A stretch of 40,088 nucleotides of DNA from Pseudomonadales bacterium (GTDB taxonomy: Bacteria > Pseudomonadota > Gammaproteobacteria > Pseudomonadales > UBA7239): the NCBI GenBank assembly GCA_020443005.1, contig JAGRJA010000250.1:1-40088 (forward strand), written 5' to 3'. Of the stretch, positions 8,995 to 40,088 are shown in pieces. The position numbers and the translations under genes were made by a program. Within the stretch, counting starts at the first letter, position 1. Each line of letters starts with the position of its first letter. The notes below the pieces were generated by a model that made no database searches, was not told the origin of the DNA, and saw only the letters and a list, made by a program, of their open reading frames with translations.

Positions 8995-9016
8995 AACACG
9001 CTTCCTTCTGTTCTGC

Positions 9017-21842: not shown

Positions 21843-22334
21843 TCAAATACCGCTAAACAGTTTTTCATTTTTTATCAGCGGCAGTGCCATCAGCAAGGCA
21901 TCTTCGCGACCCTTTTTTGCAGGATAGTAACCCCTGCGTTGACCGATCTCTACAAAGCCAACGGACAAATAGAGGTTAATGGCCGAAAGATTACTCACCC
22001 TGACCTCCAGAAAAATGGTTTCTGCCTCGGCTTTTGCCATTGAGATCAATTTGTTCAACATCGTCCTGCCAAAGCCCCTGCCCCGATACTGAGTAGAAAC
22101 CAGAAGGTTCAGCAAGGTGTATTCATCTGCGACTGACAAAGCGGCAAAATAGCCTACAATCTCCTCATGGAACTCATAAAGACCGACACGGTGTCTGCCC
22201 GAATCAAGCGTTCCCTCAAGTATTTCATAAGACCATGGATAGGCTTGTTCTTGATATTCCAGCGCATAAAGGCGCTCGATATCAGAGGGCCGCGCCATTC
22301 TGAAAGATGGCATCTCCTGCTTGCCCGCTTTCAT
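21843..22334 (-). CDS. rimI: Ribosomal-protein-alanine N-acetyltransferase (GNAT)
   Basis: YRGRGFGRTML acetyl-CoA motif, and ...FLEVRVSNLSAINLYLSVGF...RRGYYPAKKGREDALLMALPL closely parallels E. coli RimI. ATGA overlap with the upstream gene. Confidence 0.85.
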   Translation of the reverse strand: MKAGKQEMPSFRMARPSDIERLYALEYQEQAYPWSYEILEGTLDSGRHRVGLYEFHEEIVGYFAALSVADEYTLLNLLVSTQYRGRGFGRTMLNKLISMAKAEAETIFLEVRVSNLSAINLYLSVGFVEIGQRRGYYPAKKGREDALLMALPLIKNEKLFSGI

Positions 22335-25175: not shown

Positions 25176-26024
25176 CTAAAGCCATCGCCAACCGTAAGTG
25201 TTATAAAAGGTGATCGCAGAACGGGCGAACAACCTGATATGGTGCCACCCTTTTTTGGCCGAGTGACCGCCCACATGAATGATTTTCATATCCGGACAAT
25301 AAGCCACCTTTGCCAGCCAGGCCATACGCAAGGAAAGATCGAAATCCTCAAAATAGAGAAAATAATCCTTTGAAAAGCCCCCCACCGACTTCAGCATCTG
25401 TGTTCTTGCCAACATGCAGCAGCCACTGATTATGGGTATTTCCTTACAAGCCCTGCCCGCTGTATAAACATCCTGCATTTCATAGTTTGCCAACCGTTTG
25501 CCGAAAAATCTTTTCACCCAGGATGGCGCAAAGCCCCGCAACAGAAAATCCAGAACCGTGGGAAACCGCTTGCACAAATACAAAGGCCTGTTTTTCTCAT
25601 CCACCACATGAGGCGCAAGCAAACCGACATCAATATTTGCCTGCAGATACGCCACTCCTTTTAAAAGCGCATCCTCCTCAAGAAAAACATCCGGGTTCAG
25701 AATCAGGTGAAAACGGCTTTGTCGGTTTTCAATACAGCGATTGTGACCGCCACCATAACCCAAATTGGTCGTGTTTTTGATGATGTTCACCTGGTCGAAG
25801 CAGGCGCTTAACTGCTCCATACAGCGCTCTGGCAGATTGGCCAGAGAAGTCTGCTGCGGGTGATTATCGAGCAGACAAAGACTCAAACGCTCGCTCTCGG
25901 GAAATGACTTCAGCTTTTCTGCCGCCTTCACAAGGTGCATCAGCGTTTTTTCAAGCACCGATATATCGGTGTCATACAAAACGACAGAGACCGACAAAAG
26001 TACAGCTGGAGCAGAAGAATTCAT
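25176..26024 (-). CDS. Family 2 glycosyltransferase (rhamnosyltransferase-like)
   Basis: SVSVVLYDTD N-terminal strand, LGYGGGHN, NPDVFLEEDAL (DxD-equivalent) and FLYFEDFDLSLR (ED motif). ATG 26024; the ORF-track start 26039 is TTG. Confidence 0.8.
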   Translation of the reverse strand: MNSSAPAVLLSVSVVLYDTDISVLEKTLMHLVKAAEKLKSFPESERLSLCLLDNHPQQTSLANLPERCMEQLSACFDQVNIIKNTTNLGYGGGHNRCIENRQSRFHLILNPDVFLEEDALLKGVAYLQANIDVGLLAPHVVDEKNRPLYLCKRFPTVLDFLLRGFAPSWVKRFFGKRLANYEMQDVYTAGRACKEIPIISGCCMLARTQMLKSVGGFSKDYFLYFEDFDLSLRMAWLAKVAYCPDMKIIHVGGHSAKKGWHHIRLFARSAITFYNTYGWRWL

Positions 26025-26278
26025 TACCGGAGCACACAAACAGATAGAAACACGAAACTATAACCCATACGCTTCCATTTTCGAGAAGAAAATCACCAGA
26101 AACCTTCGGCCGACAAACACTGTCCCCGAGACAAAATCACTTGCCCCGCCTTTCCACAACTTTAGGGGCTCACCCACCTGAAGAGAAAAATGAACTATAT
26201 CCCCTATTCCCTTGCAATTATTTTCCTGCGAAAGCTATTATGACGGGCTATTCTTTTCAACGAAGTGTAAAAATACCA

Positions 26279-27010
26279 ATGCGTCAACCCGAAAGAATCC
26301 TTTGTGTCCTCGGCATGCATCGAAGTGGAACCAGTTGTCTGACCGGCTCCCTGCAGCAAGGCGGCCTTTTTTTGGGAAAACACCATACTTGGAATGAGTA
26401 TAACCGCAAAGGTAATCGGGAGAATCAGGATATCGTTGATCTGCACGAAAATATTTTCAAGGCAAACGGTGTCAGCTGGCATTACCCCGTTCGCTGTTCA
26501 AGCTGGTACGAAAGACTGTTCAAACCCCAGTTGAAGTGGCGAAACAGCGACTACGAGCAGGCCCGAAAAATACTTGATGATTACGCCGACCAACCCATCT
26601 GGGGCTTCAAGGATCCACGCGCCCTGATGCTACTGGACGGATGGCTAAAAGTTGCACCTCACATGGAATTCGTGGGCATATACCGTCATCCGATGGCAGT
26701 AGCACAGTCCTTGCACAACAGGGAAGCACTCAAACTCGAAATAGCCCACGGCCTTGAGTTATGGCTTCAATACAATACTGCCCTCTTCCGGCAATTCAGA
26801 AAAACCCCCTTCCCGCTGCTGAGCTTTGACTGGTCAGAAGAAAAATTTCACGACAAACTGGAACAATTGCACAAGCAACTGGGGCTGGCAGCTCTACCTG
26901 AAGGGCAACGCTTTTATACAGCAGAATTGCACAATGAGAAGATAACCACCGCAGCCTTGCCACCCAAGGTTCAGGCCTTGTATGAAAAATTCCAGGAGAT
27001 TGAATACTAA
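26279..27010 (+). CDS. Sulfotransferase family protein
   Basis: PAPS 5'-phosphosulfate-binding-loop-like motif ILCVLGMHRSGTS seven residues from ATG 26279. Alternative starts at 26240 and 26141 (TTG). Confidence 0.7.
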   Translation: MRQPERILCVLGMHRSGTSCLTGSLQQGGLFLGKHHTWNEYNRKGNRENQDIVDLHENIFKANGVSWHYPVRCSSWYERLFKPQLKWRNSDYEQARKILDDYADQPIWGFKDPRALMLLDGWLKVAPHMEFVGIYRHPMAVAQSLHNREALKLEIAHGLELWLQYNTALFRQFRKTPFPLLSFDWSEEKFHDKLEQLHKQLGLAALPEGQRFYTAELHNEKITTAALPPKVQALYEKFQEIEY

Positions 27011-27011
27011 T

Positions 27012-28091
27012 ATGCCTGAGAACAAATCGCCCAACCTGGCTACAGACAAACCAACGCCCAAAAATATTCCCAACGCGCCAAAGCCGGTTATGTGGTTCGA
27101 CCCCCACAGTATGCCGACGATTCCGTCCAGTGATCCCGGCTACCTCACAAAAAGTCACAAACCCGTGCTGTCCATCATTGTGATGGTTTATAAAATGCCC
27201 GAGCAGGCCCAAAAAACCATCTATTCCCTGTCAACAGCCTATCAACGGGATGTCAGTGAAGCAGACTATGAAATTATTGTTATGGAAAACCCTTCCAATA
27301 ACCTGCTTGGCAAAGAAGCGGCAGAATCAATAGCCAGCAATGTACGCTACATTTTTTACCCGGAAACCCTGCCCACACCAGTAAACGCAATGAATCATGG
27401 TGCTCAACAGGCAAACGGTGACTGGATAGCTGTAATGATCGACGGTGCACGCATGGTCACTCCGGGCATGGTTAACTATATTCTCGCCGCTCGTCGACTT
27501 GCGCCCAGAGTCGTTATCTCGGTACCCGGGTATCACCTTGGCAACAAGGTTCAGCAGGAAGCGATGCTTGAAGGCTACGATGAAACAACCGAAGCCGAAC
27601 TCCTCGACAGTATTAATTGGCCAGAAGACGGCTACCGGCTGTTTGAGATCAGTTGTCTGAGTGGCACCAGTGCCGGTGGCTACTTCAAACCTATCGGCGA
27701 ATGCAACTGCTTCTGTATGTCGCGCGAGGTATGGAACGAGCTAGGCGGCTATGATCCGGGTTTCACGGAAACAGGCGGAGGCCAATGTAACCTCGACCTC
27801 TATAAAAGGGCTGTTGAATTACCGGATACCACACTGGTTACACTCATGGGAGAAGGCTCCTTCCATCAGTTTCACGGTGGCATTACCACCGGAACCAAGG
27901 GCGAGGAACGACTGAAAGCCATGCAGGATCATTTCAACCAATATGCCGCCCTTCGTGGCGGTTCCTATTCATCTCCACTCAAGCGGTCACTGTATCTCGG
28001 CACACTTCCCGACTGTGCTCTCAAGTTTGTCCGGCATTCGGCCAGCGTTGTGATGAAAAACCACGGTGAAATACCTCGCGAACTGAAATAA
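27012..28091 (+). CDS. GT-A (GT2)-like protein, paralog 1 of 5, with Pro-rich N-terminal extension
   Basis: Shares LSIIVMVYKMP, YEIIVMEN, IDGARMVTP, VPGYHLG, W..DGYRLF, GGG.CNL and GEGSFHQFHGG with the other four paralogs. ATG is 1 nt after the upstream stop. Confidence 0.7.
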   Translation: MPENKSPNLATDKPTPKNIPNAPKPVMWFDPHSMPTIPSSDPGYLTKSHKPVLSIIVMVYKMPEQAQKTIYSLSTAYQRDVSEADYEIIVMENPSNNLLGKEAAESIASNVRYIFYPETLPTPVNAMNHGAQQANGDWIAVMIDGARMVTPGMVNYILAARRLAPRVVISVPGYHLGNKVQQEAMLEGYDETTEAELLDSINWPEDGYRLFEISCLSGTSAGGYFKPIGECNCFCMSREVWNELGGYDPGFTETGGGQCNLDLYKRAVELPDTTLVTLMGEGSFHQFHGGITTGTKGEERLKAMQDHFNQYAALRGGSYSSPLKRSLYLGTLPDCALKFVRHSASVVMKNHGEIPRELK

Positions 28092-28128
28092 ACCCCGATA
28101 GCAAGACGCAAGAAGGAATAACCGGAAA

Positions 28129-29154
28129 ATGACAAAAAAACCCATACTCTCAATTATCGTCATTGTCTACAAAATGCCTCGACAAGCAATGAACACCCTG
28201 CTCAGTCTCGCGCTTCCCTACCAGAAAAACGTCAATCCAGAAGAATATGAAGTGATTGTCATTGAAAACAGCTCAGAACAGAACCTGAACGCTGACACAG
28301 TCACAGCTCTCGGCCCGCAATTCCGCTATTTTCTCAGGGAGGAGTCTGGTGTTTCTCCTGTGCCAGCGGTTAATTTCGGTTTTGAACAATGTCAGGGCGA
28401 ATTCATAGGCCTGATCATTGACGGCGCCCGTATGGTCACACCGCGGGTTCTTGAATACGCCATGCTTGGCTATAAAATCACCCGTCAGGCGATTGTTATG
28501 GTACCCGGCTATCATCTGGGCGAAGAAGATCAAAAGTTTCATCTCACCACCGGTCACTCTGCGCAAAAAGAAATCGAAAAACTGGAAGAACTGGACTGGC
28601 AGGAAAACGGTTACCGTCTCTTCAACTTTGCAGCATGGAGTTCCAGTAACCAACGAGGTTACTTCCAACCGATGCAGGAATGTAATTGCCTTTTTGCCTC
28701 AAAGGACAATTTTGACCTTATTGGCCGTGCTGATGAGCGCTTTGATCAGGCTGGCGGCGGCAGCATCAACCTGCATATCTATCGCAGCCTCGGCATGCTA
28801 CCTGAAAGCCAGCTTTTCATACTGCCAGGGGAGGGTTCATTCCACCAGTTTCACGGCGGTGTAACAACCACCGAAATTGAAAACCGTGAAGCCCTGCTAA
28901 AAGCGTTTGATCAACGCCTGGAAGAGATCTGGGGAGGGAGCTTCAAGGCACTGACGAGAGAACCTATGCTGCTTGGCGCTGTCACCCATGCGGCTCAACC
29001 CTTTCTCTCGAAAGCCTCGGAACTGGCAACCCGCCGGTTCCAGCGGCTGACAATCAATAAAAAGGAATTCTGGGAAGATGACAAGGCTTTCGAACGATTC
29101 ACAGAAAACGCTGTCAGTGTTGTCGACGATGGCTATCAGCCTCCGGAAATGTAA
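28129..29154 (+). CDS. GT-A (GT2)-like protein, paralog 2 of 5
   Basis: SIIVIVYKMPRQAMNT, YEVIVIENSS, IDGARMVTPRVLEY, VPGYHLG, GGGSINLHIYR and PGEGSFHQFHGG. Confidence 0.7.
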   Translation: MTKKPILSIIVIVYKMPRQAMNTLLSLALPYQKNVNPEEYEVIVIENSSEQNLNADTVTALGPQFRYFLREESGVSPVPAVNFGFEQCQGEFIGLIIDGARMVTPRVLEYAMLGYKITRQAIVMVPGYHLGEEDQKFHLTTGHSAQKEIEKLEELDWQENGYRLFNFAAWSSSNQRGYFQPMQECNCLFASKDNFDLIGRADERFDQAGGGSINLHIYRSLGMLPESQLFILPGEGSFHQFHGGVTTTEIENREALLKAFDQRLEEIWGGSFKALTREPMLLGAVTHAAQPFLSKASELATRRFQRLTINKKEFWEDDKAFERFTENAVSVVDDGYQPPEM

Positions 29155-29161
29155 TAAACAC

Positions 29162-29443
29162 TCAGGGTAGCTTTTTTTTAGCCATACGCTTCAGTTTCGC
29201 TTTGGCGTATTTGTCGCCCTGATCAGCTGCCTGTTGTAACCAGTACAAATACTGGTCATGACTTTTCTCAACACCATTACCGGCAAAATACATGCGAGCC
29301 ACTTTCTGCTGTGCCTCCAGAACGCCCTGCTCTGCGAGCGGCAGAAGAATCTGAAAGGCCTGATCAAATTCAAAATGCATAAAAGCATTCACACCTTTCT
29401 GCAGCAATTGCATATTTTCATTTTCCCCAGTGGATTTGCTCAT
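29162..29443 (-). CDS. Sel1-like repeat (SLR/TPR-type) protein, 93 aa
   Basis: LAEQGVLEAQQKVARMYFAGNGVEKSHDQYLYWLQQAADQGDKYAKAKL fits the Sel1 repeat consensus. ATG 29443 has an AAGGAG SD; the ORF track extends to 29548. Confidence 0.7.
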   Translation of the reverse strand: MSKSTGENENMQLLQKGVNAFMHFEFDQAFQILLPLAEQGVLEAQQKVARMYFAGNGVEKSHDQYLYWLQQAADQGDKYAKAKLKRMAKKKLP

Positions 29444-29573
29444 AATCTCCTTGCGTTCAGGTTGATTTGCGCCCTGTTTTATTGCATCTGGAAATCGGTT
29501 CAACACACAACTGCCGATGCTATCCATTTTCGCAACAGGAGTGCTCAAGGCAATATTATACGCATTAAACCTG

Positions 29574-30326
29574 CTATACAGCGGGTGTTTTTTTCCAGAT
29601 AGTCACATGTGGCCTGTCACTTTCTCCGACAGGCCGACCGTTGGAATAGTAGAAAGTGGAAATCGATTTTCTCGACATATCCGGCGGGCAGGTCAGTGGC
29701 GTCGGATGCCCATGATAAGTGTCGCTTCCCGTTGAGAAAATGACAGCTCTCCCGGCTAAAGGTGCAACTTTTTTCACGCAGGTTTTCATATCGGCAGTCC
29801 ACAACTCAAGATCACCGCCATAACTCTCTTTCCAGTTCTTGTTCAGGTAAACAATGATATTCAGCCGTCGGTCAAGATCGGTTTCAGGTTGTTTATTATA
29901 GTCAGCGTGCACCATCAAGAATCCACCCGCCTTGCTTTCATGCAAGCCCCCTCCGGCCCGATAGGGGTCGGGAATCAGTGCAGACACACCAGTAAGCGTT
30001 TGCAGAAATGAAATAAACTCGGCCGAATTAAGTTCCCAATAAAAGTGACGAATGGGCAAGCCAACACGAAGCTCCATTGAAACCCAGTGCTTTTTATATT
30101 GCGCTACCGTACCATCTTTGAGTTTTTGTGACTCATCATCGTGATTGTCCCTTTTTTTGGGCTCAGGGAATGTCGCCAGTAACAAATCAATCGATTTCTC
30201 ATCGAGAAAATGATCAATAACGATGTGAGGGAACGGTTCAGCATTCCGGTATTCGTCAGCGTGCTTTCTGGCGAAATCCTGTAGAAAATCAAAATCAAGT
30301 AGAGGCTGGATACCTTGTTGGCTCAT
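29574..30326 (-). CDS. 2OG-Fe(II) oxygenase (prolyl-4-hydroxylase-like)
   Basis: PFPHIVIDHFL N-terminal motif, HxD (VHADYN), distal His (YHGHP) and the 2OG-binding RKS. GGGAGG SD. Confidence 0.8.
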   Translation of the reverse strand: MSQQGIQPLLDFDFLQDFARKHADEYRNAEPFPHIVIDHFLDEKSIDLLLATFPEPKKRDNHDDESQKLKDGTVAQYKKHWVSMELRVGLPIRHFYWELNSAEFISFLQTLTGVSALIPDPYRAGGGLHESKAGGFLMVHADYNKQPETDLDRRLNIIVYLNKNWKESYGGDLELWTADMKTCVKKVAPLAGRAVIFSTGSDTYHGHPTPLTCPPDMSRKSISTFYYSNGRPVGESDRPHVTIWKKTPAV

Positions 30327-30359
30327 GACTTCAAGCTACCTCCCGTAATACACGACAAA

Positions 30360-30995
30360 TCAATAATCCTCGAATGCTTTTTGTCGCTCTTCCAGCGAAC
30401 GGGCACGATCATTGATATAAAAGAAAGCGACCAGCGACCAGGCGGAACCATTTACCGTCGATCGAATTGCGGAAAGCTCTTTTACTGCTGAGAGAAACAA
30501 TTGACCGGGTATCATGGTTTTTATTGTACTGCTCTCGCCTTCATCGGGCATCCGTATAGCTGTTTCAGAAGGCGCATGCGATTCTGCAGCCAACAATATT
30601 TCCACCCGAAGTACCGGGTACAAATCAGTCACCGGATGGCGTAAAAAGGGTAACTGTATTTTCTGGTTGTTCCAGCTCTCAATACCACCACCCACAAGAA
30701 ACGGATCTGGCAACAGAGCCTGAGTACCCGACACAGAGGCAAGGTGACGCAAGGTGGTCGGTGAATGAAGCTCCCAAATCAGCTGTCGAATCAAGGGCGT
30801 CTGCCTAAGTCGGGCCTGGCCTTCAGGGCTTGCAACAACAGAAGCCTGCAAACCTGCCAGACAATCTGCAAACACAGCATGATATTCACGCTTGATGAAA
30901 TCGCCAAGAAACAGGTGCGGGAAGTGTTCCGCATTTTGAAATCGACTGCATTGATACTGCTGAAAATGGCTAACAAGTACAGAAGTATCAACCAT
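30360..30995 (-). CDS. Degenerate paralog of the adjacent 2OG-Fe(II) oxygenase (facial triad lost)
   Basis: Shares NAEHFPHLFLGDFI, WELHS and GTQALLPDPFLVGGGIE with its neighbour. It has HPV instead of HxD and lacks the distal His and the Arg. ATG 30995; the ORF-track start 31040 is GTG. Confidence 0.55.
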   Translation of the reverse strand: MVDTSVLVSHFQQYQCSRFQNAEHFPHLFLGDFIKREYHAVFADCLAGLQASVVASPEGQARLRQTPLIRQLIWELHSPTTLRHLASVSGTQALLPDPFLVGGGIESWNNQKIQLPFLRHPVTDLYPVLRVEILLAAESHAPSETAIRMPDEGESSTIKTMIPGQLFLSAVKELSAIRSTVNGSAWSLVAFFYINDRARSLEERQKAFEDY

Positions 30996-31187
30996 TATTG
31001 CCGGCAACTTTTTCGCCACAGACACGCCACTCCATCCCACCCCGGGATTGCAAGATCATTAACGGTTCACTTATTCAGGAATTCACTCTAACATACAACA
31101 CATGAATCAGAAAAATGTTGATACAGGGCAAGCACTTGCCATCAGTTTATTCACGACAGAAAACCCCGAACACAGACAGCTTATAAC

Positions 31188-33178: not shown

Positions 33179-34167
33179 CCAGAAACCCAAAGCTATCGAT
33201 CGTGCTGATCGTTTACAAGATGCCGCGACAGGCGCTGAATACGATTTACAGCCTTTCCATAAACCACCAGAAAAATGTGCGGGAAACTGATTACGAAATC
33301 ATCGTGGTAGAAAACCTTTCCAGCGATAACCTCGATGGAGATGCAGTTTGTGCAATCGGCAACAACATACGCTACTTTCCAAGAAATGAAACCAGCGCCT
33401 CTCCGGTTGGTGCAATCAACTTCGGCATTGAACAATGCCGGGCACCGGCGATATGTCTGATGATTGACGGCGCCAGAATGGTGACGCCTCGCGTCATTGA
33501 GTATGCACTGATGGCTCGCAACATCGATCAGGATTTTCTGTTGGCCGTTCCGGGTTACAATATCGGCCCCCATGAGCACCAATACAACATCTCAAGGCAA
33601 TACGATCAGGAAACTGAAAAACGCTTGCTGGAAACCGTAAAATGGAAAACCAACGGTTATCGCCTGTTTGATATCTGCAATATCAGCGGTGCCAATGAAA
33701 AAGGCATTTTTCACCCGTTGCTGGAGTGCAATTGCATGTTTTCTTCTGCACAAAACTTTGAGCGTATCGGTGGTGCAAACATGGATTTCCAGCTTCCGGG
33801 AGGAGGGTCAATCAACCTTCACATGTTCCGTCAACTCGGCATGCTGAAACAGACCCGATACTACTTCATCACACCCGGGGAAGGTTCATTCCACCAGTTT
33901 CATGGCGGCATAACCACACAGGAAGCCGAAGATCGTGAGGAAGTACTTGAATCCCATCGCAAACAGCTTCATTCCTACTGGGAAGGTGGTTTTCATGCCA
34001 TGCGACGGGAGCCTATTCTTCTTGGCGCCGTTGGTAGCAAGGCACAATCATTTCTGCATTACTCCTCAAAAAAAGCGCGCAAACGCTTTGGGTGGATGCG
34101 AAACGGAGGAAAACATCCCTGGATTGACGACTTCAATCTGTTTGCATCTGCCAATTTCAACACTTAA
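33175..34167 (+). CDS. GT-A (GT2)-like protein, paralog 5 of 5
   Basis: SIVLIVYKMPRQALNT, YEIIVVENLS, IDGARMVTPRVIEY, VPGYNIG, GGGSINLHMFR and PGEGSFHQFHGG. ATGA overlap with the paralog 4 stop. Confidence 0.7.
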   Translation: MTRNPKLSIVLIVYKMPRQALNTIYSLSINHQKNVRETDYEIIVVENLSSDNLDGDAVCAIGNNIRYFPRNETSASPVGAINFGIEQCRAPAICLMIDGARMVTPRVIEYALMARNIDQDFLLAVPGYNIGPHEHQYNISRQYDQETEKRLLETVKWKTNGYRLFDICNISGANEKGIFHPLLECNCMFSSAQNFERIGGANMDFQLPGGGSINLHMFRQLGMLKQTRYYFITPGEGSFHQFHGGITTQEAEDREEVLESHRKQLHSYWEGGFHAMRREPILLGAVGSKAQSFLHYSSKKARKRFGWMRNGGKHPWIDDFNLFASANFNT

Positions 34168-34257
34168 TATGAATATTTTGACACTCACCGGCAAGTTGTC
34201 AGCCCTGTAAACACCCTCGGCAAGAATGAGTCGATCTACCACACAAAGAGAATATAT

Positions 34258-35043
34258 ATGGCGATTTATGCACCCCCTTCAATCCGCAGATTTTCAGCTG
34301 ACTTTATGTGCTTCAGTACATGGGTAGATCATCTGGCATTTGGTTATGACATTGTCGCCGCATTAAGGCCCGCACTTACTGTAGAACTCGGCACTCAGGG
34401 TGGGCTTTCCTTTTTCTGTTTCTGCCAGTCGTTAAAAGAGAATGAAATTGATGGTATTGCCTATGCCGTCGACACCTGGGAAGGAGAAGAGCATACAGGC
34501 AAGTATGATGAATCCGTTTTCAATAGCGTGCAGGAACACGCCAGAAAAAATCATGCTGGACGAGCCTATCTCATGCGCATGCTTTTTCAGGAAGCTATCA
34601 ATCACTTCAGTGACGAATCCATTGATCTACTGCATATTGATGGCTTGCACACCTACGACGCCGTGAAAGAGGATTTCACAACCTGGTTACCCAAGGTAAG
34701 ACCCGGAGGTGTTATCCTCTTTCATGACATTCAGGCCAGGATGATGGATTTTGGCGCCTGGAAATTCTGGGAAGAATTATCTGCTTCCGGAGAATACAAA
34801 ACCATGGAATTCAAACACGGTTTCGGTCTGGGCGTGCTTCAGAAAAACGGTGGGCCGCAAAACGAACATACTCTGCTCAAACTCCTTTTTGACGCGTCAC
34901 CGGATGAGCACGGTGAATTACGCGCATTCTACATCCATGCAGCAAAATTCCTTGAACTCCAGCGCAAAGTTGAACGGCAGGAGCGCATGAAGAAAAAACG
35001 ACAGGCCGAAATGCAGGCAAAACAAAAAAACGCACAAGCGTAA
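34258..35043 (+). CDS. Class I SAM-dependent methyltransferase (Methyltransf_24/CmcI-like by recollection) with basic C-terminal tail
   Basis: Motif I-like VELGTQGGLS, IDLLHIDGLHTYDAVKEDF and VRPGGVILFHD. Lys/Arg/Gln-rich tail is RKVERQERMKKKRQAEMQAKQKNAQA. Confidence 0.7.
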   Translation: MAIYAPPSIRRFSADFMCFSTWVDHLAFGYDIVAALRPALTVELGTQGGLSFFCFCQSLKENEIDGIAYAVDTWEGEEHTGKYDESVFNSVQEHARKNHAGRAYLMRMLFQEAINHFSDESIDLLHIDGLHTYDAVKEDFTTWLPKVRPGGVILFHDIQARMMDFGAWKFWEELSASGEYKTMEFKHGFGLGVLQKNGGPQNEHTLLKLLFDASPDEHGELRAFYIHAAKFLELQRKVERQERMKKKRQAEMQAKQKNAQA

Positions 35044-35052
35044 TAGCTTTTT

Positions 35053-35847
35053 TTAAAGACGACTCTCAAGCACCCCTGAAAAAAATTCAGCCGTTTCCTC
35101 AAGAAGCGGTTGAGCCCAGGGAATACGAACAAAGTCCTCCTGACTTACACCCCTCATTTTGTTCACATAACTTTCAAGTAAACCACAGAGTTTTTCAGAA
35201 GAAAAATCGCCATCAAGCCCCCTGTCAAGTGAAACACTGGAGATGGGGCTCTTGTTGCTCACTGTCATCGCCAGGTCAAGATGAGGAGGTGGTACAGCCA
35301 GCTGGCTGAAAGCCAAGGCTGCATCCTTGTGCTGAATGACACTGGGCAGCCTGCTGTTGCTATCGAGCCACTGACTGCTAACAGCATAATTATTCGTCAT
35401 GCAACGCCCATTCAAACCCCAGATAAAAACCGGATGTTGTTGATTCGGGCTACCTATATTAGCCGAACGCCAAAGTATTGCAGGAAGGGCTTCCTGATCA
35501 AGCTGACCCAGATGAACAGCAATATCGGGATCAATCCAGTCATCATCGTCAATAAACAAATAGTAGGCATTGGCCACAATCGGTATATTTTTATAGCCCT
35601 TGAAAGGGATAAAAAGTGTATTTGCTGCTTCTCTGATATTCTTCTCGGAAAGGTTTTTTAAGGCTTGCCTCACATTGCAATACGATATCTGAAAGGTCCT
35701 GTTCCACAGATGATAAAGTTTTTCAAGATAATTCAAGGGCTTGCCCCAAAGCCTACAAAAATCACGGGACTGTTGCAAAAAAGCGGTCTCGCTCATCCCC
35801 CCCCAATCAGGAGTTTGCCGCTGTACAACCACCACACTATTGCTCAT
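35053..35847 (-). CDS. Hypothetical protein (264 aa) with DDDD motif; contains G8 tract at codons 14-16
   Basis: The ORF starts 7 nt after the upstream gene stop. YYLFIDDDDWIDPD is reminiscent of a GT-A DxD motif, but no family is recognised. Confidence 0.5.
   Translation of the reverse strand: MSNSVVVVQRQTPDWGGMSETAFLQQSRDFCRLWGKPLNYLEKLYHLWNRTFQISYCNVRQALKNLSEKNIREAANTLFIPFKGYKNIPIVANAYYLFIDDDDWIDPDIAVHLGQLDQEALPAILWRSANIGSPNQQHPVFIWGLNGRCMTNNYAVSSQWLDSNSRLPSVIQHKDAALAFSQLAVPPPHLDLAMTVSNKSPISSVSLDRGLDGDFSSEKLCGLLESYVNKMRGVSQEDFVRIPWAQPLLEETAEFFSGVLESRL
35807..35814 (-). repeat. Homopolymeric G8 tract (C8 on + strand) near the 5' end of the 264-aa ORF
   Basis: Read directly: tgg ggg ggg atg (WGGM) on the minus strand. 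Confidence 0.9.
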
Positions 35848-35854
35848 CGGGCTG

Positions 35855-38071
35855 TCAGGAATTCATCACATCGTGAATAGGTTTGCGGGAGAGCTTTCTT
35901 TTTATTGTTCGTTGCAGCTCAAAGGGAATGAGACGAACCAGCGTTCTTATCACCGGCTTTTCCCGCAATAACAATAAAAATCTCAGCAACTTTTCACGCT
36001 TGCCAGGGTCGAGCACCTCCTGTTTTTCTCCATGCGGGAAAGAGAGAGTCCGCATCGTTTCCATATCAGAGGCAAGAGTCGACAAGTTTCTGGCAGAAGG
36101 CTGCGTGTCAACAATAAAGTCCTCGGCATAACGAAAAACAGCATCGCCCGATGCGCAATTGTCCCACACCGTTTGCTCGTAGCTGTGTTCAAGCATCCAT
36201 TCCCTCAGCTCAATGAAAGCATTTTTCCATTGCTCGGGTTCATCATTCCATCGACGAATATAACTCAATGGTCTGCCTGCGAGTCGCTCTTCAAAGGAAC
36301 CAAGATTTGATGCCATAATCGGCCTACCGGACTCGAGGGCAGAACTCAAAACATAGCAATAGGTTTCGGGCCACTGGGCCGGAAACCAAATCACATGAGG
36401 GTTAATCTGCTCGATCAGACCTTGAAGTTCATCATTTTTATAAGCACCGTGACTTGTAATCGTTTCACGCATGGGTTTATAGGCGTAACCGATCAAATGA
36501 AACTCCAGTCGATCCAGTGGGTCCCTATGGCACGCTGTATGCTCGAACTTATCTGCCCCCTTCTCGCGACTGACAGCACCTATCACTGCGATACGCAATT
36601 TTTCGTTTTCTGCAACAGGAACAACATAGGGTGCCGGATAGGATTTGATCATTTCGGCATCCGGATGGTAAGCAACTGTAATCGACAAATGAGGGAAATA
36701 ACTGTTATAGATTTGGGCGCACGCTTTACTGGGAGAAAAAATCCGCTTTGCACCGTCAAGCACGCTCCGACTAAAGACCTGCCAGGAAGAAAGTGAATAG
36801 CCCGTTGGCAAGGGATATGATTCAGCGCACTTTACAGGTCTGTCTTTTGGGTCTTCTACAAAAATCCCTTGCTTGTCGGTCAATGTCGGATTGGCATTGA
36901 TAAAATAATAGTCATGCAATGTCACATCATAAGGAAGTGCCAATATGCGGGGCAGCTCAAGCGCCTTTACGGGCATTCTCATGACATGATGGATATGTAT
37001 TCGTTCAACGCCAAGATAAACCAGCGTGTCGACGAGCAATGAGAAATCGCTCCTCATAGAAAAAAACAAATGCAGGTCAAAATGTCGTGCTGTAAAACAT
37101 AGCTCAAGACCTTCTTCGCCATTGGGCTTGAGCACCAGAATATTGATTTTATCCGAGAAAAAAGCCTGCATTTCATTGATATGGTTCTGGATACCACCGC
37201 CCATATCATGTGTCATAAACAGAATTGTTCTGCGGCTTTCTTCCGCAAGCATATCAAGCTGGATTTTTTGCCGTAAATGTCGGGCCGGATCTTGCTGAAT
37301 ATGCTCATGAACCAGACGGTGATAGTGGGGATATTTTTTATCGAGTATTTGCATGGCGTTTTCAACACGCTCAAGCTTCTCATGAGAAAAACTCACCCCT
37401 CCCTCATGAAACACAAACACATTCGTACACAAGGCATGCCGCAAGCCAACGGCCTCACACCTCAGACAAAAATCGTTTTCCTCACCATAACCTCGCCCAA
37501 AAGCCTCTTCATCAAAATAACCCACTTTTTTCAAAGCAGATCGCTTGATATACATACAGAATCCAACAGCGGTCGGCATAAAGATCGGTTCGGAAAAGTG
37601 GTATTTGGAAAAAAAACTGTCGATCTCGCTGACACTTTTATCCCCAACAAGCTCATTACTTTTACACAGCACCGGAAAACTGCAAATTTCAGCGTTATTG
37701 CTAAATGGGGTTACTGTCGCAATCGCATCGTCAGAGATGGCACATTCATACAATCGATCTAGCCAGTTATTGGCAACGATGGTATCGCTGTTAACAAGCA
37801 CAACATCCCTGTCCTCATGCAAGCGCATGCCTTTGTTAACCGTAGCCACAAACCCCAGATTTTGCTCATTCGTCAACAGGGTGAATTTTCCGGTATCCGC
37901 ATGCTCCATCAGGTAATCGGTCAGTTTCTGATTGGGCGAGCCATCATTGATAATGATAATCTCGCAATCATGTGCGTAATCCGATGCAAGAACCGAATCT
38001 ATACAGCGTACTGTCTGATCGAAACCATCATATACCGGAATAATTATATCGACGGGAGGGTTTACACTCAT
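35855..38071 (-). CDS. Bifunctional-looking glycosyltransferase (N-terminal GT2 domain, C-terminal GT1/GT4-like domain)
   Basis: N-terminus has VDIIIPVYDG, EIIIINDGSP, VLVNSDTIV and EENDFCLR. The middle has THDMGGGIQNH. The C-terminus has IAVIGAVSREKG...WPETYCYVLSSALESGRP (E-x7-E-like). ATGA overlap with the upstream gene. Confidence 0.8.
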   Translation of the reverse strand: MSVNPPVDIIIPVYDGFDQTVRCIDSVLASDYAHDCEIIIINDGSPNQKLTDYLMEHADTGKFTLLTNEQNLGFVATVNKGMRLHEDRDVVLVNSDTIVANNWLDRLYECAISDDAIATVTPFSNNAEICSFPVLCKSNELVGDKSVSEIDSFFSKYHFSEPIFMPTAVGFCMYIKRSALKKVGYFDEEAFGRGYGEENDFCLRCEAVGLRHALCTNVFVFHEGGVSFSHEKLERVENAMQILDKKYPHYHRLVHEHIQQDPARHLRQKIQLDMLAEESRRTILFMTHDMGGGIQNHINEMQAFFSDKINILVLKPNGEEGLELCFTARHFDLHLFFSMRSDFSLLVDTLVYLGVERIHIHHVMRMPVKALELPRILALPYDVTLHDYYFINANPTLTDKQGIFVEDPKDRPVKCAESYPLPTGYSLSSWQVFSRSVLDGAKRIFSPSKACAQIYNSYFPHLSITVAYHPDAEMIKSYPAPYVVPVAENEKLRIAVIGAVSREKGADKFEHTACHRDPLDRLEFHLIGYAYKPMRETITSHGAYKNDELQGLIEQINPHVIWFPAQWPETYCYVLSSALESGRPIMASNLGSFEERLAGRPLSYIRRWNDEPEQWKNAFIELREWMLEHSYEQTVWDNCASGDAVFRYAEDFIVDTQPSARNLSTLASDMETMRTLSFPHGEKQEVLDPGKREKLLRFLLLLREKPVIRTLVRLIPFELQRTIKRKLSRKPIHDVMNS

Positions 38072-39756
38072 GCTTCATTCCTGTTAAACAGTTTTTCCGC
38101 CAACCTTACCATCCTTAAAGAGCGCAAATTATTGAGATCACGAGAAAGAAATTCATTTTCCTGCCTGATTTTTTTTACATATTCGTGATGATCTTTCAGA
38201 ACACTTTGGAGACGCTGATTATTAACCTTGATACGGCTGAGAAGATCACTTTCAACCTCATCCAGTTCATTGATTCGATTGTGACATTTATCGATGTACT
38301 CTGCAGCGTTATCCAAATCCGTTTGCTTTTCCGCAATCATTTCGTCGAGTTCATGAATTCTCGCTTCACACAATGCAATGTAATCTGTATTTTGCCTAAT
38401 ATCTTTTTGCCGGTCCTCAAGTGCCTGTTCCAGCTCTGCAATATACCCTGTACACTGCTCTATATATTTTGAGTTGTGCTCCAGATCTTGTTGTCGCTTC
38501 AACAAAATACTATCGAGCTCTTCAATGCGGGCCTGACATTTCTCAATATAGGCGAGATTTTCAGCAAGTTTTTCTTCTCTATCTGATACGGCCAATTCGG
38601 CCTGTTCAAGACGCTCGGCCTTCAAACCAAGCTCAGACAAGAGCTTGTCCTGTTCACTGATTCTCTGCTCACAACGGGTAATATAATCAATATTCTGCTC
38701 GATTTTTCTTTCCCGATCCAGAACAGCCAATTCAGCCTGCTCAAGTCTTTCTGCCTTTACACCTAAATCCTTAAGCAACGCATCCTTTTGCTGAATCGTT
38801 TCCAGCGCCTTTTGATGGGATTCACCCAGATCACTCAGTGCCTGATTACATAATACAAAATTTTTCTGCGTGCCCTTCAGTGCAAGCCCGATACCCGTAG
38901 CGAGCAGGTTTTGCAAAGAAAAAAAACGCTCCTTTAATTTACTGAATTCATAACAAAATAATTCGTCTGTTAATGTGGGCGTTTTTGATTGCATCAACAA
39001 ATCATAAAATCGAACAGAAAGTTCAACAACTTCGTTTTCAGGTAAAACCTGCGCACAATTGTGTTTTTTCCTGCTATCTACAACTCTGCCAACAGCCTCT
39101 AAAAATTCTTCCTGAAGGATATCTTCTGCCAGGCCAAAATGATTCAACATCGTTTCAGCTGTTTGTTCAGAAGAAAGAATCAGCGAATCATAATCAATGA
39201 CAACACGATCATATGCCGATGAAAAATTGAGCAAATCGAACATGTAATACAACCAAAGCAGGTAGCAGTAACACTCATCAAACCCGTCCCTGCGCATGAT
39301 CGACGCAACCACCTCGGCAGGATGGCGTATTGCAATCAGTATCTTGGGAACCAGATTCAATCGTTTGAAAACATCGCCCCAGAAAGGCAGTAGACGACAG
39401 AACCTTGGGTCTTTAATCGCAACCCGCGATGCGCCCAGATGCTGTTCTCTGTACCAGTCTTCAGCAACACTAAGCAAGGTATTGTACTCGGCATCAACTG
39501 AAAGAGCCGGCTTCCCATCATTGAACAGACAACCTATATCAAACCAGCTTGTGGAGAGGAGCTCAAACAAACGCTCATTGATTGACATGACTTCCTGGTC
39601 TTCCCAAAAACCATCGTCATTAATATTTTCGATACCCTCAAGCAGGTTATTACCAAGTTCATAACCCTGCATTCCGAGTATTCGACATATCAGCGAAGTT
39701 CCGCTTCTATGCATCCCCGCTACAATAACAAGCTCGGAATCAATATCGTTCATCAT
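38068..39756 (-). CDS. Sulfotransferase fused to a C-terminal repeat coiled coil
   Basis: LVIVAGMHRSGTS loop at residues 9-21. Residues about 329-502 are heptad-rich repeats, each with YIxxC. Confidence 0.75.
   Translation of the reverse strand: MMNDIDSELVIVAGMHRSGTSLICRILGMQGYELGNNLLEGIENINDDGFWEDQEVMSINERLFELLSTSWFDIGCLFNDGKPALSVDAEYNTLLSVAEDWYREQHLGASRVAIKDPRFCRLLPFWGDVFKRLNLVPKILIAIRHPAEVVASIMRRDGFDECYCYLLWLYYMFDLLNFSSAYDRVVIDYDSLILSSEQTAETMLNHFGLAEDILQEEFLEAVGRVVDSRKKHNCAQVLPENEVVELSVRFYDLLMQSKTPTLTDELFCYEFSKLKERFFSLQNLLATGIGLALKGTQKNFVLCNQALSDLGESHQKALETIQQKDALLKDLGVKAERLEQAELAVLDRERKIEQNIDYITRCEQRISEQDKLLSELGLKAERLEQAELAVSDREEKLAENLAYIEKCQARIEELDSILLKRQQDLEHNSKYIEQCTGYIAELEQALEDRQKDIRQNTDYIALCEARIHELDEMIAEKQTDLDNAAEYIDKCHNRINELDEVESDLLSRIKVNNQRLQSVLKDHHEYVKKIRQENEFLSRDLNNLRSLRMVRLAEKLFNRNEA
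38251..38772 (-). repeat. Intragenic coding repeats (2 x LG[VL]KAERLEQAELAV units plus 5 x ~28-aa YIxxC units)
   Basis: aa 331-345 and 376-390 are near-identical. YITRC, YIEKC, YIEQC, YIALC and YIDKC recur at about 28-44-aa spacing. The nucleotide similarity is visible (38594-38655 vs 38730-38790). Confidence 0.8.
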
Positions 39757-39771
39757 TCAATTGTTTATCAG

Positions 39772-40088
39772 TTATTTAACTGGCTTGTATCCATAGTTTT
39801 CATAAAATGGTTGTGTGAGGTCCTGAACGAGTGCGATTTCTTTCGAATTAAGCAACTGCTTGTATTTGTTTTTTTCTTTATGTGTGTCAACACTGGAATA
39901 ATTCATGATTGAAGAATCCTCTCCAATAAATTCTAGAATTTTCTCGATATAGGGCTTTGGTTTTGCCACCATTGATTCATATTCAATTTCCAGCAGTCTG
40001 TCACCGTAATGTTTTTTGAACTCATCAATAATGATCATCGTTTCAGTCCAATAATTTATCCCGCCGATCACGCTGTGTTTTGCCATTA
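39772..40088 (-). CDS. Probable sulfotransferase, C-terminal part only (gene runs off the right edge)
   Basis: ...LLEIEYESMVAKPKPYIEKILEFIGED... resembles the C-terminal segment of sulfotransferases. No N-terminal PAPS loop is present, so the ATG at 40086 is probably internal. Confidence 0.5.
   Translation of the reverse strand, partial: MAKHSVIGGINYWTETMIIIDEFKKHYGDRLLEIEYESMVAKPKPYIEKILEFIGEDSSIMNYSSVDTHKEKNKYKQLLNSKEIALVQDLTQPFYENYGYKPVK

What the first reader, a model, noticed from the sequence alone, without database searches (positions are those of the whole stretch)
25176..40088. 15-kb tailoring-enzyme locus with no visible export, polymerisation, priming or sugar-nucleotide genes
From the end of the leuA upstream region to the window edge, every gene is a modifying enzyme or an orphan.

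- One GT2.
- Five paralogous GT-A-like genes.
- A GT2/GT4-like fusion.
- At least three sulfotransferases (26279, 38068, 39772).
- A SAM methyltransferase.
- An intact 2OG-Fe(II) oxygenase plus a dead paralog.
- A Sel1-repeat protein and a DDDD-motif orphan.

I see no Wzx/Wzy, ABC transporter, undecaprenyl-phosphate priming transferase, chain-length regulator or NDP-sugar synthesis gene.

The conservative reading is part of a sulfated, methylated surface polysaccharide locus. The alternative is a protein-directed system. A P4H-like hydroxylase combined with serial glycosyltransferases recalls eukaryotic hydroxy-amino-acid O-glycosylation (Skp1, extensins). Adding sulfation would be very unusual for a bacterium.
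Basis: partly seen in the sequence, partly recalled or inferred. Interest (0 to 1): 0.8.

Follow-up and report, generated by a model that had tools for sequence, protein, structure and literature searches.

The report
Sulfated O-antigen-type glycan cluster, truncated
This is the enzyme half of an ordinary ABC-transporter-type surface-polysaccharide gene cluster from an uncultured marine bacterium; the export genes look absent only because the assembled contig stops there, and the one unusual part is a sulfotransferase carrying a long coiled coil in the position where related clusters carry the chain-length "ruler" enzyme.

Summary
The gene inventory is correct. The 15 kb holds a GT2, five paralogous GT-A enzymes, a GT2+GT4 fusion, three sulfotransferases, a methyltransferase, an active 2OG oxygenase with a dead paralog, a Sel1 protein and an orphan. 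None has a predicted membrane helix.

The missing export genes are an assembly artefact. The window is a complete 40,088-bp MAG contig that ends inside the last sulfotransferase gene. In four of four collinear relatives whose contigs reach that far (L081, L082, L003, L004), and in the more distant L015, that gene is directly followed by wzt and wzm.

The protein-glycosylation alternative gains no support.

One feature is new. The 562-aa sulfotransferase plus coiled coil (g14) overlaps the start of the GT2/GT4 polymerase (g13) by 4 bp. It is fused to that polymerase in two alphaproteobacterial MAG loci (L062 Hyphomonas, L067 Amphiplicatus). It occupies the slot held by a methyltransferase in beta-proteobacterial homologues, which have the Klebsiella O7 ORF6 architecture. 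It is probably a sulfate-adding chain terminator and ruler. However, the Wzt of close relatives lacks the cap-binding domain found in all known terminated systems.

The 2OG pair and the orphan remain unexplained.

The parts
25176..26039 (-). g01: GT2 glycosyltransferase, 287 aa, WbbL/rhamnosyltransferase-like. Part of the extra module g01-g04.
   Evidence: PF00535 E=2e-6. TIGR01556 E=1.4e-8, below cutoff. Homologues of 39-42% in L015 and L083.
26141..27010 (+). g02: PAPS-type sulfotransferase, 289 aa by longest ORF. The true start is probably further in. Paralog of the g14 N-terminal domain.
   Evidence: PF13469 E=8.8e-6. Invariant MHRSGTS and RHP..V..S motifs in alignment A3. 42-46% homologues in L015 and L083.
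26982..29154 (+). g03 (26982-28091) and g04 (28129-29154): two extra members of the GT-A paralog family.
   Evidence: PF00535. Alignment A1. g03 is 53-63% identical to single copies in L083 and L084.
29162..29548 (-). g05: small cytoplasmic Sel1-repeat protein. Orthologues are 84 aa, so the true start is probably internal.
   Evidence: PF08238 E=1.2e-6. 64-66% orthologues in L081 and L082 at the same position.
29574..30326 (-). g06: active P4H-type 2OG-Fe(II) oxygenase, 250 aa. Substrate unknown.
   Evidence: PF13640 E=1.4e-18. HADYN...HGHP...RKS conserved. Weak PDB hits to prolyl hydroxylases.
30360..31040 (-). g07: catalytically dead paralog of g06, 226 aa, conserved as a gene.
   Evidence: 26% identity to the g06 N-terminal half. 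HxD, distal His and RxS are missing in all four orthologues.
31188..34167 (+). g08, g09, g10: conserved triad of GT-A paralogs. Each has its own orthologue in L081 and L082.
   Evidence: Alignment A1. 63-73% orthologues. AF2 pLDDT 90 with GT-A fold matches.
34258..35043 (+). g11: SAM-dependent (sugar) O-methyltransferase, 261 aa, with a basic helical tail.
   Evidence: PF13578 E=1e-27 and TylF weak. Only PDB sequence hit is 6g7d, 'Methyltransferase domain protein'. 67-77% orthologues.
35053..35847 (-). g12: orphan with an IDDDDW motif, 264 aa. Last gene of the wzm...g13 operon. Found only in the closest relatives.
   Evidence: No Pfam, NCBIfam or PDB hit. 52-55% orthologues directly after g13 in L081 and L082.
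35855..38071 (-). g13: two-module GT (GT2 + GT4-like), 738 aa. Inferred polymerase.
   Evidence: PF00535 E=5e-17. GT4/GT1 domains in orthologues. More than 600 genomic homologues, and a Wzt-type ATPase within 10 kb in most of the 80 fetched loci.
38068..39756 (-). g14: sulfotransferase domain (residues 1 to ~286) plus a ~270-aa proline-free coiled coil built of 28-residue repeats. Its stop overlaps the g13 start by 4 bp. Inferred terminator/ruler or scaffold.
   Evidence: fold and motifs. (homologue lengths 345-820 aa). (fusions to the polymerase). (shared tail motif).
39772..40088 (-). g15: C-terminal ~104 aa of a ~255-aa stand-alone sulfotransferase, cut by the contig end. In relatives wzt and wzm follow directly.
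   Evidence: PF13469 and PF00685. Aligns to residues 153-254 of orthologues. wzt and wzm lie next to it in L081, L082, L003, L004 and L015.

Best explanation
The 15 kb is the cytoplasmic enzyme part of a Wzm/Wzt (ABC-transporter-dependent) pathway for a sulfated, O-methylated glycan. The product is most likely an O-antigen-type polysaccharide built on a polyprenol carrier at the inner face of the membrane.

Inferred roles:
- g13 (GT2+GT4) is the polymerase.
- The GT-A paralogs, and possibly g01, add the remaining backbone or branch sugars.
- g11 O-methylates a sugar.
- g02 and g15 sulfate sugars using PAPS.
- g14, a sulfotransferase on a long coiled coil, docks on the polymerase and caps or marks chains of a set length. 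It would work like WbdD, WbbB or Klebsiella O7 ORF6, but add sulfate.

The transporter genes wzt and wzm lie just past the contig end. Priming, ligation, PAPS and NDP-sugar supply are encoded elsewhere.

The locus is a mosaic of two separable modules:
- Module A: wzm, wzt, g15, g14, g13, g12.
- Module B: g01-g04, g06-g11.

Shown here: the domain identities, the synteny, the fusions and the contig end. Inferred: the polymerase and terminator roles, the substrate, and the O-antigen fate.
For: 1. The window is the whole contig, and g15 is cut at about residue 153.
2. Collinear relatives L081 and L082 have the order Sel1, 2OG, dead 2OG, three GT-A genes, MT, orphan, GT2/GT4, ST+coil, ST, Wzt, Wzm. 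Their g10 is 70-73% and g13 57-59% identical to the window. L003, L004, L005, L010, L011 and L015 have the order Wzm, Wzt, a stand-alone ST (absent in L005 and L010), ST+coil, g13.
3. The relatives' Wzt and Wzm score best against TagH/Wzt and Wzm/KpsM models.
4. None of the 15 proteins has a predicted TM helix. This fits cytoplasmic-face assembly.
5. The g13 family has more than 600 genomic hits. Most of the 80 fetched loci carry a Wzt-type ATPase within 10 kb, and many also a recognisable Wzm.
6. The g14 fold is a PAPS sulfotransferase with invariant PAPS motifs, followed by two helices of 96 and 167 residues.
7. The g14 coil is proline-free with 28-aa periodicity.
8. g14 homologues directly upstream of g13 range from 345 to 820 aa.
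9. ST-linker-GT2-GT4 occurs as a single ORF in L062 (1694 aa) and L067.
10. Beta-proteobacterial g13 homologues are methyltransferase-linker-GT2-GT4 fusions. This is the architecture shown biochemically to be terminator, ruler and polymerase in K. pneumoniae O7 (PMC11231755).
11. The ends of the ST coils and the fusion junctions share an S-x-S-W-R-x-T-x-P-L-R-like motif.
12. ST-bearing loci L016 and L062 have Wzt with the Wzt_C cap-binding domain.
13. Sulfated polysaccharide clusters with ABC transporters and sulfotransferases are documented in marine Cobetia and Vibrio.
Against: - The transporter genes are not in the window. Their presence rests on synteny.
- In four less similar loci (L012, L079, L013, L009) the ST-g13 module has no adjacent wzm or wzt.
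- Wzt in all window-type relatives is short (227-250 aa) and lacks Wzt_C. [quoted passage not shown] This weakens the terminator role for g14 in this lineage.
- Module B also occurs without g13, wzm or wzt (L083, L084). It may therefore serve a different glycan.
- Nothing shows that the product is ligated to lipid A-core rather than being another glycolipid or capsule-like polymer.
- The roles of g05, g06, g07 and g12 are unexplained.
Confidence: 0.78

Rival explanations
1. The pathway is the same ABC-transporter glycan pathway, but g14 is not a chain terminator. Its coiled coil only tethers a repeat-unit sulfotransferase to the polymerase or membrane. Chain length is then set by coupling of polymerisation to export, as in CBM-less systems such as K. 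pneumoniae O2a.
For: Wzt of every window-type relative lacks Wzt_C. All characterised terminated systems have that domain. Three sulfotransferases in one locus suggest heavy internal sulfation.
Against: [quoted passage not shown] ST-bearing loci L016 and L062 do carry Wzt_C.
Confidence: 0.3
2. Two unrelated systems happen to lie side by side. Module A (wzm, wzt, g15, g14, g13, g12) makes one sulfated polymer. Module B (g01-g04, g06-g11) modifies a different envelope glycan or glycolipid.
For: Module B homologues (g01, g02, g03, g04/g10, g11, and a pair of g06-like genes) occur in L083 without g13, wzm or wzt, and a subset (one g03-like GT-A and the 2OG pair) in L084. There they sit beside GtrA, UbiA and DprE-like genes. 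Module A occurs without module B in L005 and L010-L013.
Against: The two modules are adjacent and collinear in the window and in L081, L082, L003, L002 and L004. These come from different MAGs with 47-73% protein identity. One two-module polymerase alone would leave module A without adaptor or branch GTs.
Confidence: 0.2
3. A protein-directed system. g06 hydroxylates a Pro or Lys of a target protein, the GT-A paralogs glycosylate it serially, and the sulfotransferases modify it.
For: g06 is P4H-like. The best structural matches of the g14 ST domain are tyrosylprotein sulfotransferases. One of the GT-A fold matches is ppGalNAc-T2.
Against: These are fold-level similarities at 10-18% identity that also include non-protein enzymes (CurM ST, TarP, K4CP). 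No candidate substrate gene is conserved in the locus. The genes are embedded in a wzm/wzt operon in all collinear relatives. The same 2OG family sits next to P450 and Rieske genes in L085. Homologues of g14 carry the source label 'O-antigen biosynthesis protein'.
Confidence: 0.05
4. A group 2/3-like capsule (Kps-type) rather than an O-antigen.
For: The described sulfated marine polysaccharide clusters are kps-type. The Wzm of L081 also hits the KpsM model weakly.
Against: No KpsE, KpsD, KpsC or KpsS-like genes were seen in the flanks of the relatives. In L015 wzm abuts an Nramp gene, and in L003 an AT3 acyltransferase. Wzt and Wzm score higher against Wzt/TagH and Wzm models.
Confidence: 0.08

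Closest known systems
K. pneumoniae O7 ORF6 and O12 WbbB (terminator, coiled-coil ruler and polymerase in one protein); E. coli O9a/O8 WbdD + WbdA (split version). Source: PMC11231755, PMC3482155.
   Same: The order is catalytic capping domain, extended coiled coil, then two GT modules. It occurs either fused (L062, L067, beta-proteobacterial homologues) or as overlapping adjacent genes (g14/g13). It sits in a wzm/wzt cluster, and coil length varies between homologues.
   Different: The capping domain is a PAPS sulfotransferase rather than a methyltransferase, kinase or Kdo transferase. Wzt in the window's lineage lacks the Wzt_C cap-binding module that all characterised terminated systems have. 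No biochemical data exist.
Sulfated capsular polysaccharide clusters of marine Cobetia marina KMM 1449 and Vibrio sp. KMM 8419 (PMC11766843, PMC11641403).
   Same: Marine gammaproteobacteria with an ABC-transporter route, several GT2/GT4 enzymes and stand-alone PAPS sulfotransferases in the cluster.
   Different: Those clusters are kps-type (KpsMTED, KpsSC) and contain PAPS-synthesis and rml/man genes. Here the transporter is Wzm/Wzt-type, no Kps or PAPS genes are nearby, and one sulfotransferase carries a coiled coil.
K. pneumoniae O2a-type Wzm/Wzt systems with a CBM-less Wzt (established knowledge).
   Same: A short Wzt (about 230-250 aa) without a C-terminal carbohydrate-binding domain.
   Different: Those systems have no terminator or coiled-coil protein.
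Wall-teichoic-acid glycosyltransferases TarP/TarS/RmlT and chondroitin polymerase K4CP (closest solved folds of the GT-A paralogs).
   Same: GT-A fold. Foldseek E from 6e-12 to 1e-8, TM-score about 0.5.
   Different: Only 9-18% identity. The paralogs have a single Asp (IDGAR) where a DxD is expected, plus a family-specific GEGSFHQxHGG motif. Donor and acceptor are unknown.

Membership tests
ABC-transporter-dependent (Wzm/Wzt) polysaccharide pathway | wzm (ABC-2 permease) and wzt (NBD) in the cluster | tested here: inconclusive
   Not in the window, because the contig ends inside g15. Present directly next to the g15 orthologue in L081, L082, L003, L004 and L015. Absent next to the module in L012, L079, L013 and L009.
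ABC-transporter-dependent (Wzm/Wzt) polysaccharide pathway | No Wzx flippase or Wzy polymerase; all assembly enzymes are soluble or peripheral | tested here: met
   No Pfam hit to Wzx or Wzy. The maximum 19-residue hydropathy is below 1.6 for all 15 proteins.
ABC-transporter-dependent (Wzm/Wzt) polysaccharide pathway | Multi-module cytoplasmic GT acting as polymerase | tested here: met
   g13 is GT2 + GT4-like at the domain level. Polymerase activity was not tested.
ABC-transporter-dependent (Wzm/Wzt) polysaccharide pathway | Und-P priming by a WecA/WbpL-type enzyme and ligation by WaaL | not testable with these tools
   The rest of the genome is unavailable. The source genome is absent from the species-representative genome collection scanned, and the two window proteins looked up were not on record.
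Coiled-coil chain terminator / molecular ruler (WbdD, WbbB, KpO7 ORF6, KpO4 ORF7) | Catalytic domain joined to an extended coiled coil | tested here: met
   The g14 ST domain is followed by helices 289-384 and 393-559. The 267-aa tail has no proline and 28-aa periodicity.
Coiled-coil chain terminator / molecular ruler (WbdD, WbbB, KpO7 ORF6, KpO4 ORF7) | Physical or genetic coupling to the polymerase | tested here: met
   g14 and g13 overlap by 4 bp. The pair is adjacent in 14 or more loci and fused in L062 and L067. The junction motif is shared with MT-GT fusions.
Coiled-coil chain terminator / molecular ruler (WbdD, WbbB, KpO7 ORF6, KpO4 ORF7) | Wzt carries a C-terminal CBM (Wzt_C) that recognises the cap | tested here: not met
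   Wzt of L081, L082, L004, L010, L003 and L015 is 227-250 aa with no PF14524 hit where scanned. The feature is met in ST loci L016 and L062 and in the MT-fusion loci. The window's own wzt is unseen.
Coiled-coil chain terminator / molecular ruler (WbdD, WbbB, KpO7 ORF6, KpO4 ORF7) | Modification of the non-reducing terminal residue stops polymerisation | not testable with these tools
   Needs glycan structure or enzymology.
PAPS-dependent sulfotransferases (Sulfotransfer_3 / Sulfotransfer_1) | 5'-PSB P-loop and 3'-PB Arg/Ser motifs; sulfotransferase fold | tested here: met
   MHRSGTS and RHPxxVxxS are invariant in 37 sequences including g14 and g02. Foldseek matches TPST, CurM ST and SULTs with E from 2e-6 to 1e-4. 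The Pfam scores of g02 and g14 are just below gathering. g15 orthologues score E about 1e-32.
GT-A fold glycosyltransferases (GT2-like) | Rossmann-like GT-A fold with a DxD metal and nucleotide-sugar site | tested here: inconclusive
   The fold is met. The expected DxD position reads I-D-G-A-R with one invariant Asp. Metal dependence is unknown.
Prolyl-4-hydroxylase-type protein hydroxylation + O-glycosylation (Skp1/extensin-like) | Active 2OG oxygenase with a protein substrate, and GTs acting on the hydroxy-amino acid | tested here: inconclusive
   The catalytic triad is present in g06. No substrate gene is conserved. The context is glycan clusters or P450/Rieske genes. Substrate identity is not testable here.
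Group 2/3 capsule (Kps) system | KpsE/KpsD export partners and KpsC/KpsS Kdo-linker enzymes | tested here: not met
   None among the annotated flanks of L003, L015, L081 and L082. Only about 10 kb was seen on each side.

The most novel reading that the evidence does not exclude
g14 and its relatives are a previously undescribed class of O-polysaccharide chain terminator. The model is a PAPS sulfotransferase on a modular coiled-coil ruler of 28-residue repeats, with whole-protein length varying from 345 to 820 aa between genomes. It would cap the growing chain with sulfate.

In the window's lineage this would work without the cap-reading Wzt_C domain that every characterised terminated system has. 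That would break the current rule that termination and export are coupled through a CBM.
Probability: 0.35. Interest if true: 0.65.

Novelty: new variant of a known kind. Interest (0 to 1): 0.42.

Why it matters
The locus as a whole is an ordinary kind of thing, a Wzm/Wzt glycan cluster. It is a reminder that "missing" genes at a contig end are not evidence of absence.

Its value lies in three points.

- **A possible new cap.** The known chain-terminating caps are methyl, phosphomethyl and alpha/beta-Kdo. A sulfotransferase in the terminator and ruler slot would add sulfate to that list. It would also give a sequence handle for finding sulfated O-antigens in abundant uncultured marine Pseudomonadales and Cellvibrionales.
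- **A test of the coupling rule.** Loss of the Wzt cap-binding domain in this lineage tests whether termination must be coupled to export.
- **Unexplained conserved parts.** The GT-A triad, the methyltransferase and the active/dead 2OG oxygenase pair form a widespread module with no known role. The GT-A family has about 2,600 homologues and the oxygenase family about 2,800.

Tried and rejected
- **Extending the contig.** Exact-protein look-ups for g14 and g13 found nothing. An exact 42-mer from the window end found nothing in metagenome contigs. The best genome contigs relative of g13 is only 53% identical. One search then showed that the window is the full contig, so extension is impossible in this assembly.
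- **Cyanobacterial origin.** I first guessed a cyanobacterial synechan-type (xss) cluster from the GC content. I rejected this because the flanking genes (fnr, hemN, ccoNOPG with a copper-ATPase, ompW, rimI, leuA) and the source name indicate a gammaproteobacterium.
- **Function of g12.** Pfam, NCBIfam and PDB sequence searches gave no hits.
- **DNA tandem repeats in the g14 coil.** None were found. The repeats are visible only at protein level.
- **Promoter and terminator scans.** Counts were no different from shuffled sequence and were not used.
- **KdoO/LpxO-like role for g06.** I considered this. There was no family hit, only weak YhhC and FlmC matches below cutoff.
- **Capsule (Kps) and protein-glycosylation readings.** Both were considered and ranked low. 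See the rival explanations.

Full report
**1. What is in the window**

- g01 is a GT2.
- Five genes of 329-369 aa form one paralogous family: g03, g04, g08, g09 and g10.
- g13 is a 738-aa GT2 plus GT4-like fusion.
- Three genes are sulfotransferases: g02, g14 and the fragment g15.
- g11 is a Methyltransf_24 enzyme.
- g06 is a 2OG-Fe(II) oxygenase, and g07 is a degenerate paralog of it.
- g05 is a small Sel1 protein, and g12 is an orphan with an IDDDDW motif.

The paralog family is a real GT-A family. A 40-sequence alignment gave an AF2 model with mean pLDDT 90. Its best PDB matches are K4CP, TarP, TarS, RmlT and ppGalNAc-T2.

g07 aligns with the N-terminal half of g06 at 26% identity. In four genomes it lacks the HxD, distal His and RxS residues, yet it is retained as an ORF.

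None of the 15 proteins has a hydrophobic stretch compatible with a membrane helix. The statement that the window holds no Wzx/Wzy, permease or priming transferase is therefore correct.

The first 25 kb are housekeeping genes of a gammaproteobacterium: yajQ, fnr, hemN, ccoNOP, ccoG, a copper P-type ATPase, ompW, rimI and leuA.

**2. Why export looks absent**

A protein 100% identical to g10 is on record from a Pseudomonadales MAG. Its longest contig is 40,088 bp, which is the window length. Position 40088 is therefore an assembly end.

g15 aligns to residues ~153-254 of ~255-aa orthologues, so about 456 bp of that gene are missing.

Attempts to extend the sequence failed. Exact-protein look-ups, a 42-mer scan of metagenome contigs and a scan of GTDB species genomes found no copy of the source.

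**3. What lies beyond the edge in relatives**

The two closest loci are L081 (a JGI metagenome contig) and L082 (GCA_028280345.1).
- They are 70-73% identical at g10, 57-59% at g13 and 64-66% at Sel1 and the 2OG oxygenase.
- Both are collinear with window positions 29.1-40.1 kb.
- Their gene order is Sel1, 2OG, dead 2OG, three GT-A genes, MT, orphan, GT2/GT4, ST plus coiled coil, ST.
- Both then continue directly with an ABC ATPase (231-242 aa) and an ABC-2 permease (254 aa).

The same order, Wzm, Wzt, a stand-alone ST (absent in L005 and L010), ST-coil, g13, is seen in L003, L004, L005, L010, L011 and L015.

The ATPase scores best against TagH/Wzt models, and the permease against Wzm/KpsM models.

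All four loci that share the full gene set and extend far enough have wzt and wzm next to the g15 orthologue.

In four more distant loci (L012, L079, L013, L009) the ST-g13 module is not next to a transporter. The inference for this genome is therefore strong but not certain.

The g13 family itself is widespread, with more than 600 genomic hits. Most of the 80 fetched loci carry a Wzt-type ATPase within 10 kb, and many also a recognisable Wzm.

**4. The sulfotransferase with a coiled coil**

g14 has an N-terminal PAPS-sulfotransferase domain.
- The MHRSGTS and RHP..V..S motifs are invariant across 37 homologues.
- The fold matches tyrosylprotein sulfotransferases, the CurM sulfotransferase domain and cytosolic SULTs.

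This domain is followed by two predicted helices of 96 and 167 residues. The 267-residue tail has no proline and a 28-residue (four-heptad) periodicity.

Its stop codon overlaps the g13 start by 4 bp.

Homologues at the same position directly upstream of g13 range from 345 to 820 aa. They carry proline-free stretches of 103-580 residues.

In two alphaproteobacterial MAG loci the two genes are one ORF. L062 (Hyphomonas) encodes a 1694-aa protein with the order ST-like domain, ~480-aa linker, GT2, GT4, GT1. L067 (Amphiplicatus) is similar.

In most beta-proteobacterial homologues the GT2-GT4 module is fused to an N-terminal SAM methyltransferase and a linker containing a ~100-residue coil. In L031 a separate FkbM methyltransferase sits in that slot.

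The ends of the ST coils and the junctions of the fusions share an S-x-S-W-R/Q-x-T-x-P-L-R-like motif. The motif is degenerate in the window's lineage.

This is the architecture that Kelly et al. characterised biochemically in K. pneumoniae O7 ORF6: methyltransferase-kinase terminator, coiled-coil ruler, then two polymerase GT modules. [quoted passage not shown]

On this comparative evidence, g14 plus g13 is a split terminator, ruler and polymerase unit in which a sulfotransferase replaces the methyltransferase.

**5. The discordant feature**

[quoted passage not shown] Pfam confirms Wzt_C (PF14524) in three scanned methyltransferase-type loci (the fusions L021 and L032, and L031 with a separate FkbM) and in two sulfotransferase-bearing loci, L016 and L062.

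Wzt of L081, L082, L004, L010, L003 and L015 is only 227-250 aa and has no such domain.

There are two ways to read this. The window's lineage may terminate chains without cap-gated export. Alternatively, g14 may be a tethered repeat-unit sulfotransferase rather than a terminator.

I rate the terminator/ruler role at about 0.35-0.45 and the scaffold role at about 0.3. In the lineage with short Wzt, a stand-alone ST (the g15 type) is found directly after wzt.

**6. Mosaic structure**

Homologues of g01, g02, g03, g04/g10, g11 and a pair of g06-like genes occur together in L083, on a 2.67-Mb contig. A subset (one g03-like GT-A and the 2OG pair) occurs in L084. Neither has g13, wzm or wzt. They sit among GtrA, UbiA and DprE1/DprE2-like genes (L083 has the first two, L084 the DprE-like pair and GtrA), with methyltransferase, PhyH, MBOAT and LtaS/sulfatase-family genes.

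Conversely, the wzm...g13 operon occurs without the GT-A family in L005 and L010-L013.

The locus therefore combines two modules.
- Module A covers export, sulfotransferases and polymerase.
- Module B covers the GT-A enzymes, methyltransferase, 2OG oxygenases, and the extra GT2 and ST.

The two modules stay adjacent in six loci from different MAGs. This argues for, but does not prove, a common product. In the window, module B is expanded (g01-g04) relative to L081 and L082.

**7. The protein-glycosylation idea**

g06 is P4H-like, and some fold matches are to protein-modifying enzymes. These are 10-18% identity fold-level matches that also include polymer- and ACP-directed enzymes.
- No substrate gene is conserved in the locus.
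- The genes sit in a wzm/wzt cluster.
- The 2OG family occurs as tandem pairs in other envelope-glycan clusters. In L085 it lies next to P450 and Rieske oxygenases.

I put this reading at about 0.05. The substrate of g06 is unknown, as is the purpose of its dead partner g07 and of Sel1 g05. A heteromeric complex acting on a sugar or substituent is my guess and is marked as inference.

**8. Comparison with what is known, and novelty**

Sulfated polysaccharide clusters with ABC transporters and sulfotransferases are already described in marine Cobetia and Vibrio. Those are kps-type and include PAPS genes.

Full-text searches found no paper linking a sulfotransferase with WbdD. They also found none describing a sulfotransferase in a Wzm-type sulfated O-antigen cluster. 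The K. pneumoniae paper does not mention sulfate. The library is not exhaustive.

**Verdict**

The finding as framed, an export-less tailoring locus that might be protein-directed, is mostly explained away by the contig end and synteny.

What remains is a new variant of a known kind. It is a Wzm/Wzt glycan cluster whose terminator slot holds a coiled-coil sulfotransferase, in a lineage whose Wzt lacks the cap reader, together with an unexplained conserved 2OG pair. Interest is moderate.

Noticed in passing
L021 8408-12181, L032 8198-12178, L018 8375-12271, L057 7196-12274: Beta-proteobacterial and myxobacterial homologues of g13 are 1250-1700-aa fusions in the order SAM methyltransferase, linker, GT2, GT4 (the K. 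pneumoniae O7 ORF6 layout). Wzt carries Wzt_C in the two of these loci that were scanned (L021, L032).
   Followed up: partly
L062 7925-13009; L067 3177-6704: Single ORFs fuse a g14-like sulfotransferase domain, a coiled-coil linker and the GT2-GT4(-GT1) polymerase. The Wzt of L062 has Wzt_C.
   Followed up: partly
window 38068-38870 (g14 residues 296-562) and tails of homologues: The coil is built of about 28-residue repeats (xxYIxxCxxRIxELDxxLxxxQxDLxxN). It ends in a tail related to an S-x-S-W-R-x-T-x-P-L-R motif, which also marks the coil-to-GT junction in fused homologues. This may be a polymerase or membrane docking site.
   Followed up: partly
L085 7429-9043 (same genome as L082): A second tandem pair of g06-like 2OG oxygenases (63% and 46% identity) lies next to two P450s and a KshA-like Rieske oxygenase, not next to glycan genes.
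   Followed up: no
window 2076-3452, 8023-9042, 9017-10222: Two cytochrome P450 genes and an extradiol (HsaC/BphC-like) dioxygenase lie upstream in the window, separated by fnr and hemN. This suggests aromatic or steroid-type catabolism.
   Followed up: no
window 6225-7817 (-): A 530-aa ORF with only weak partial hits (MtsC / Omp28-related domain). Function unknown.
   Followed up: no
window 19649-20515 (+) and 22331-23278 (-): Two ORFs of 288 and 315 aa, between the cco accessory genes and leuA, have no NCBIfam hit.
   Followed up: no
L082 3569-6145: An 858-aa YfhO-family (GT-C) membrane protein directly flanks the Sel1 gene in this relative only. It may add periplasmic glycosylation to the same polymer.
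   Followed up: no
L079 5265-7766; L083 16191-18719: Large (833-842 aa) Sulfatase/LtaS-family proteins recur next to module A (L079) and module B (L083). They could be periplasmic phospho-substituent transferases or sulfatases.
   Followed up: no
window 38001-40000: GC falls to 0.41 over g14 and g15, against 0.44-0.51 in the rest of the locus. This fits a laterally exchanged operon end.
   Followed up: no
window 34900-35043 (g11 C-terminus): The methyltransferase ends in a ~50-residue, highly basic helical tail (…RKVERQERMKKKRQAEMQAKQKNAQA). The tail is absent from the catalytic domain model. It may be a membrane or complex tether, so g11 is an alternative capping enzyme.
   Followed up: no
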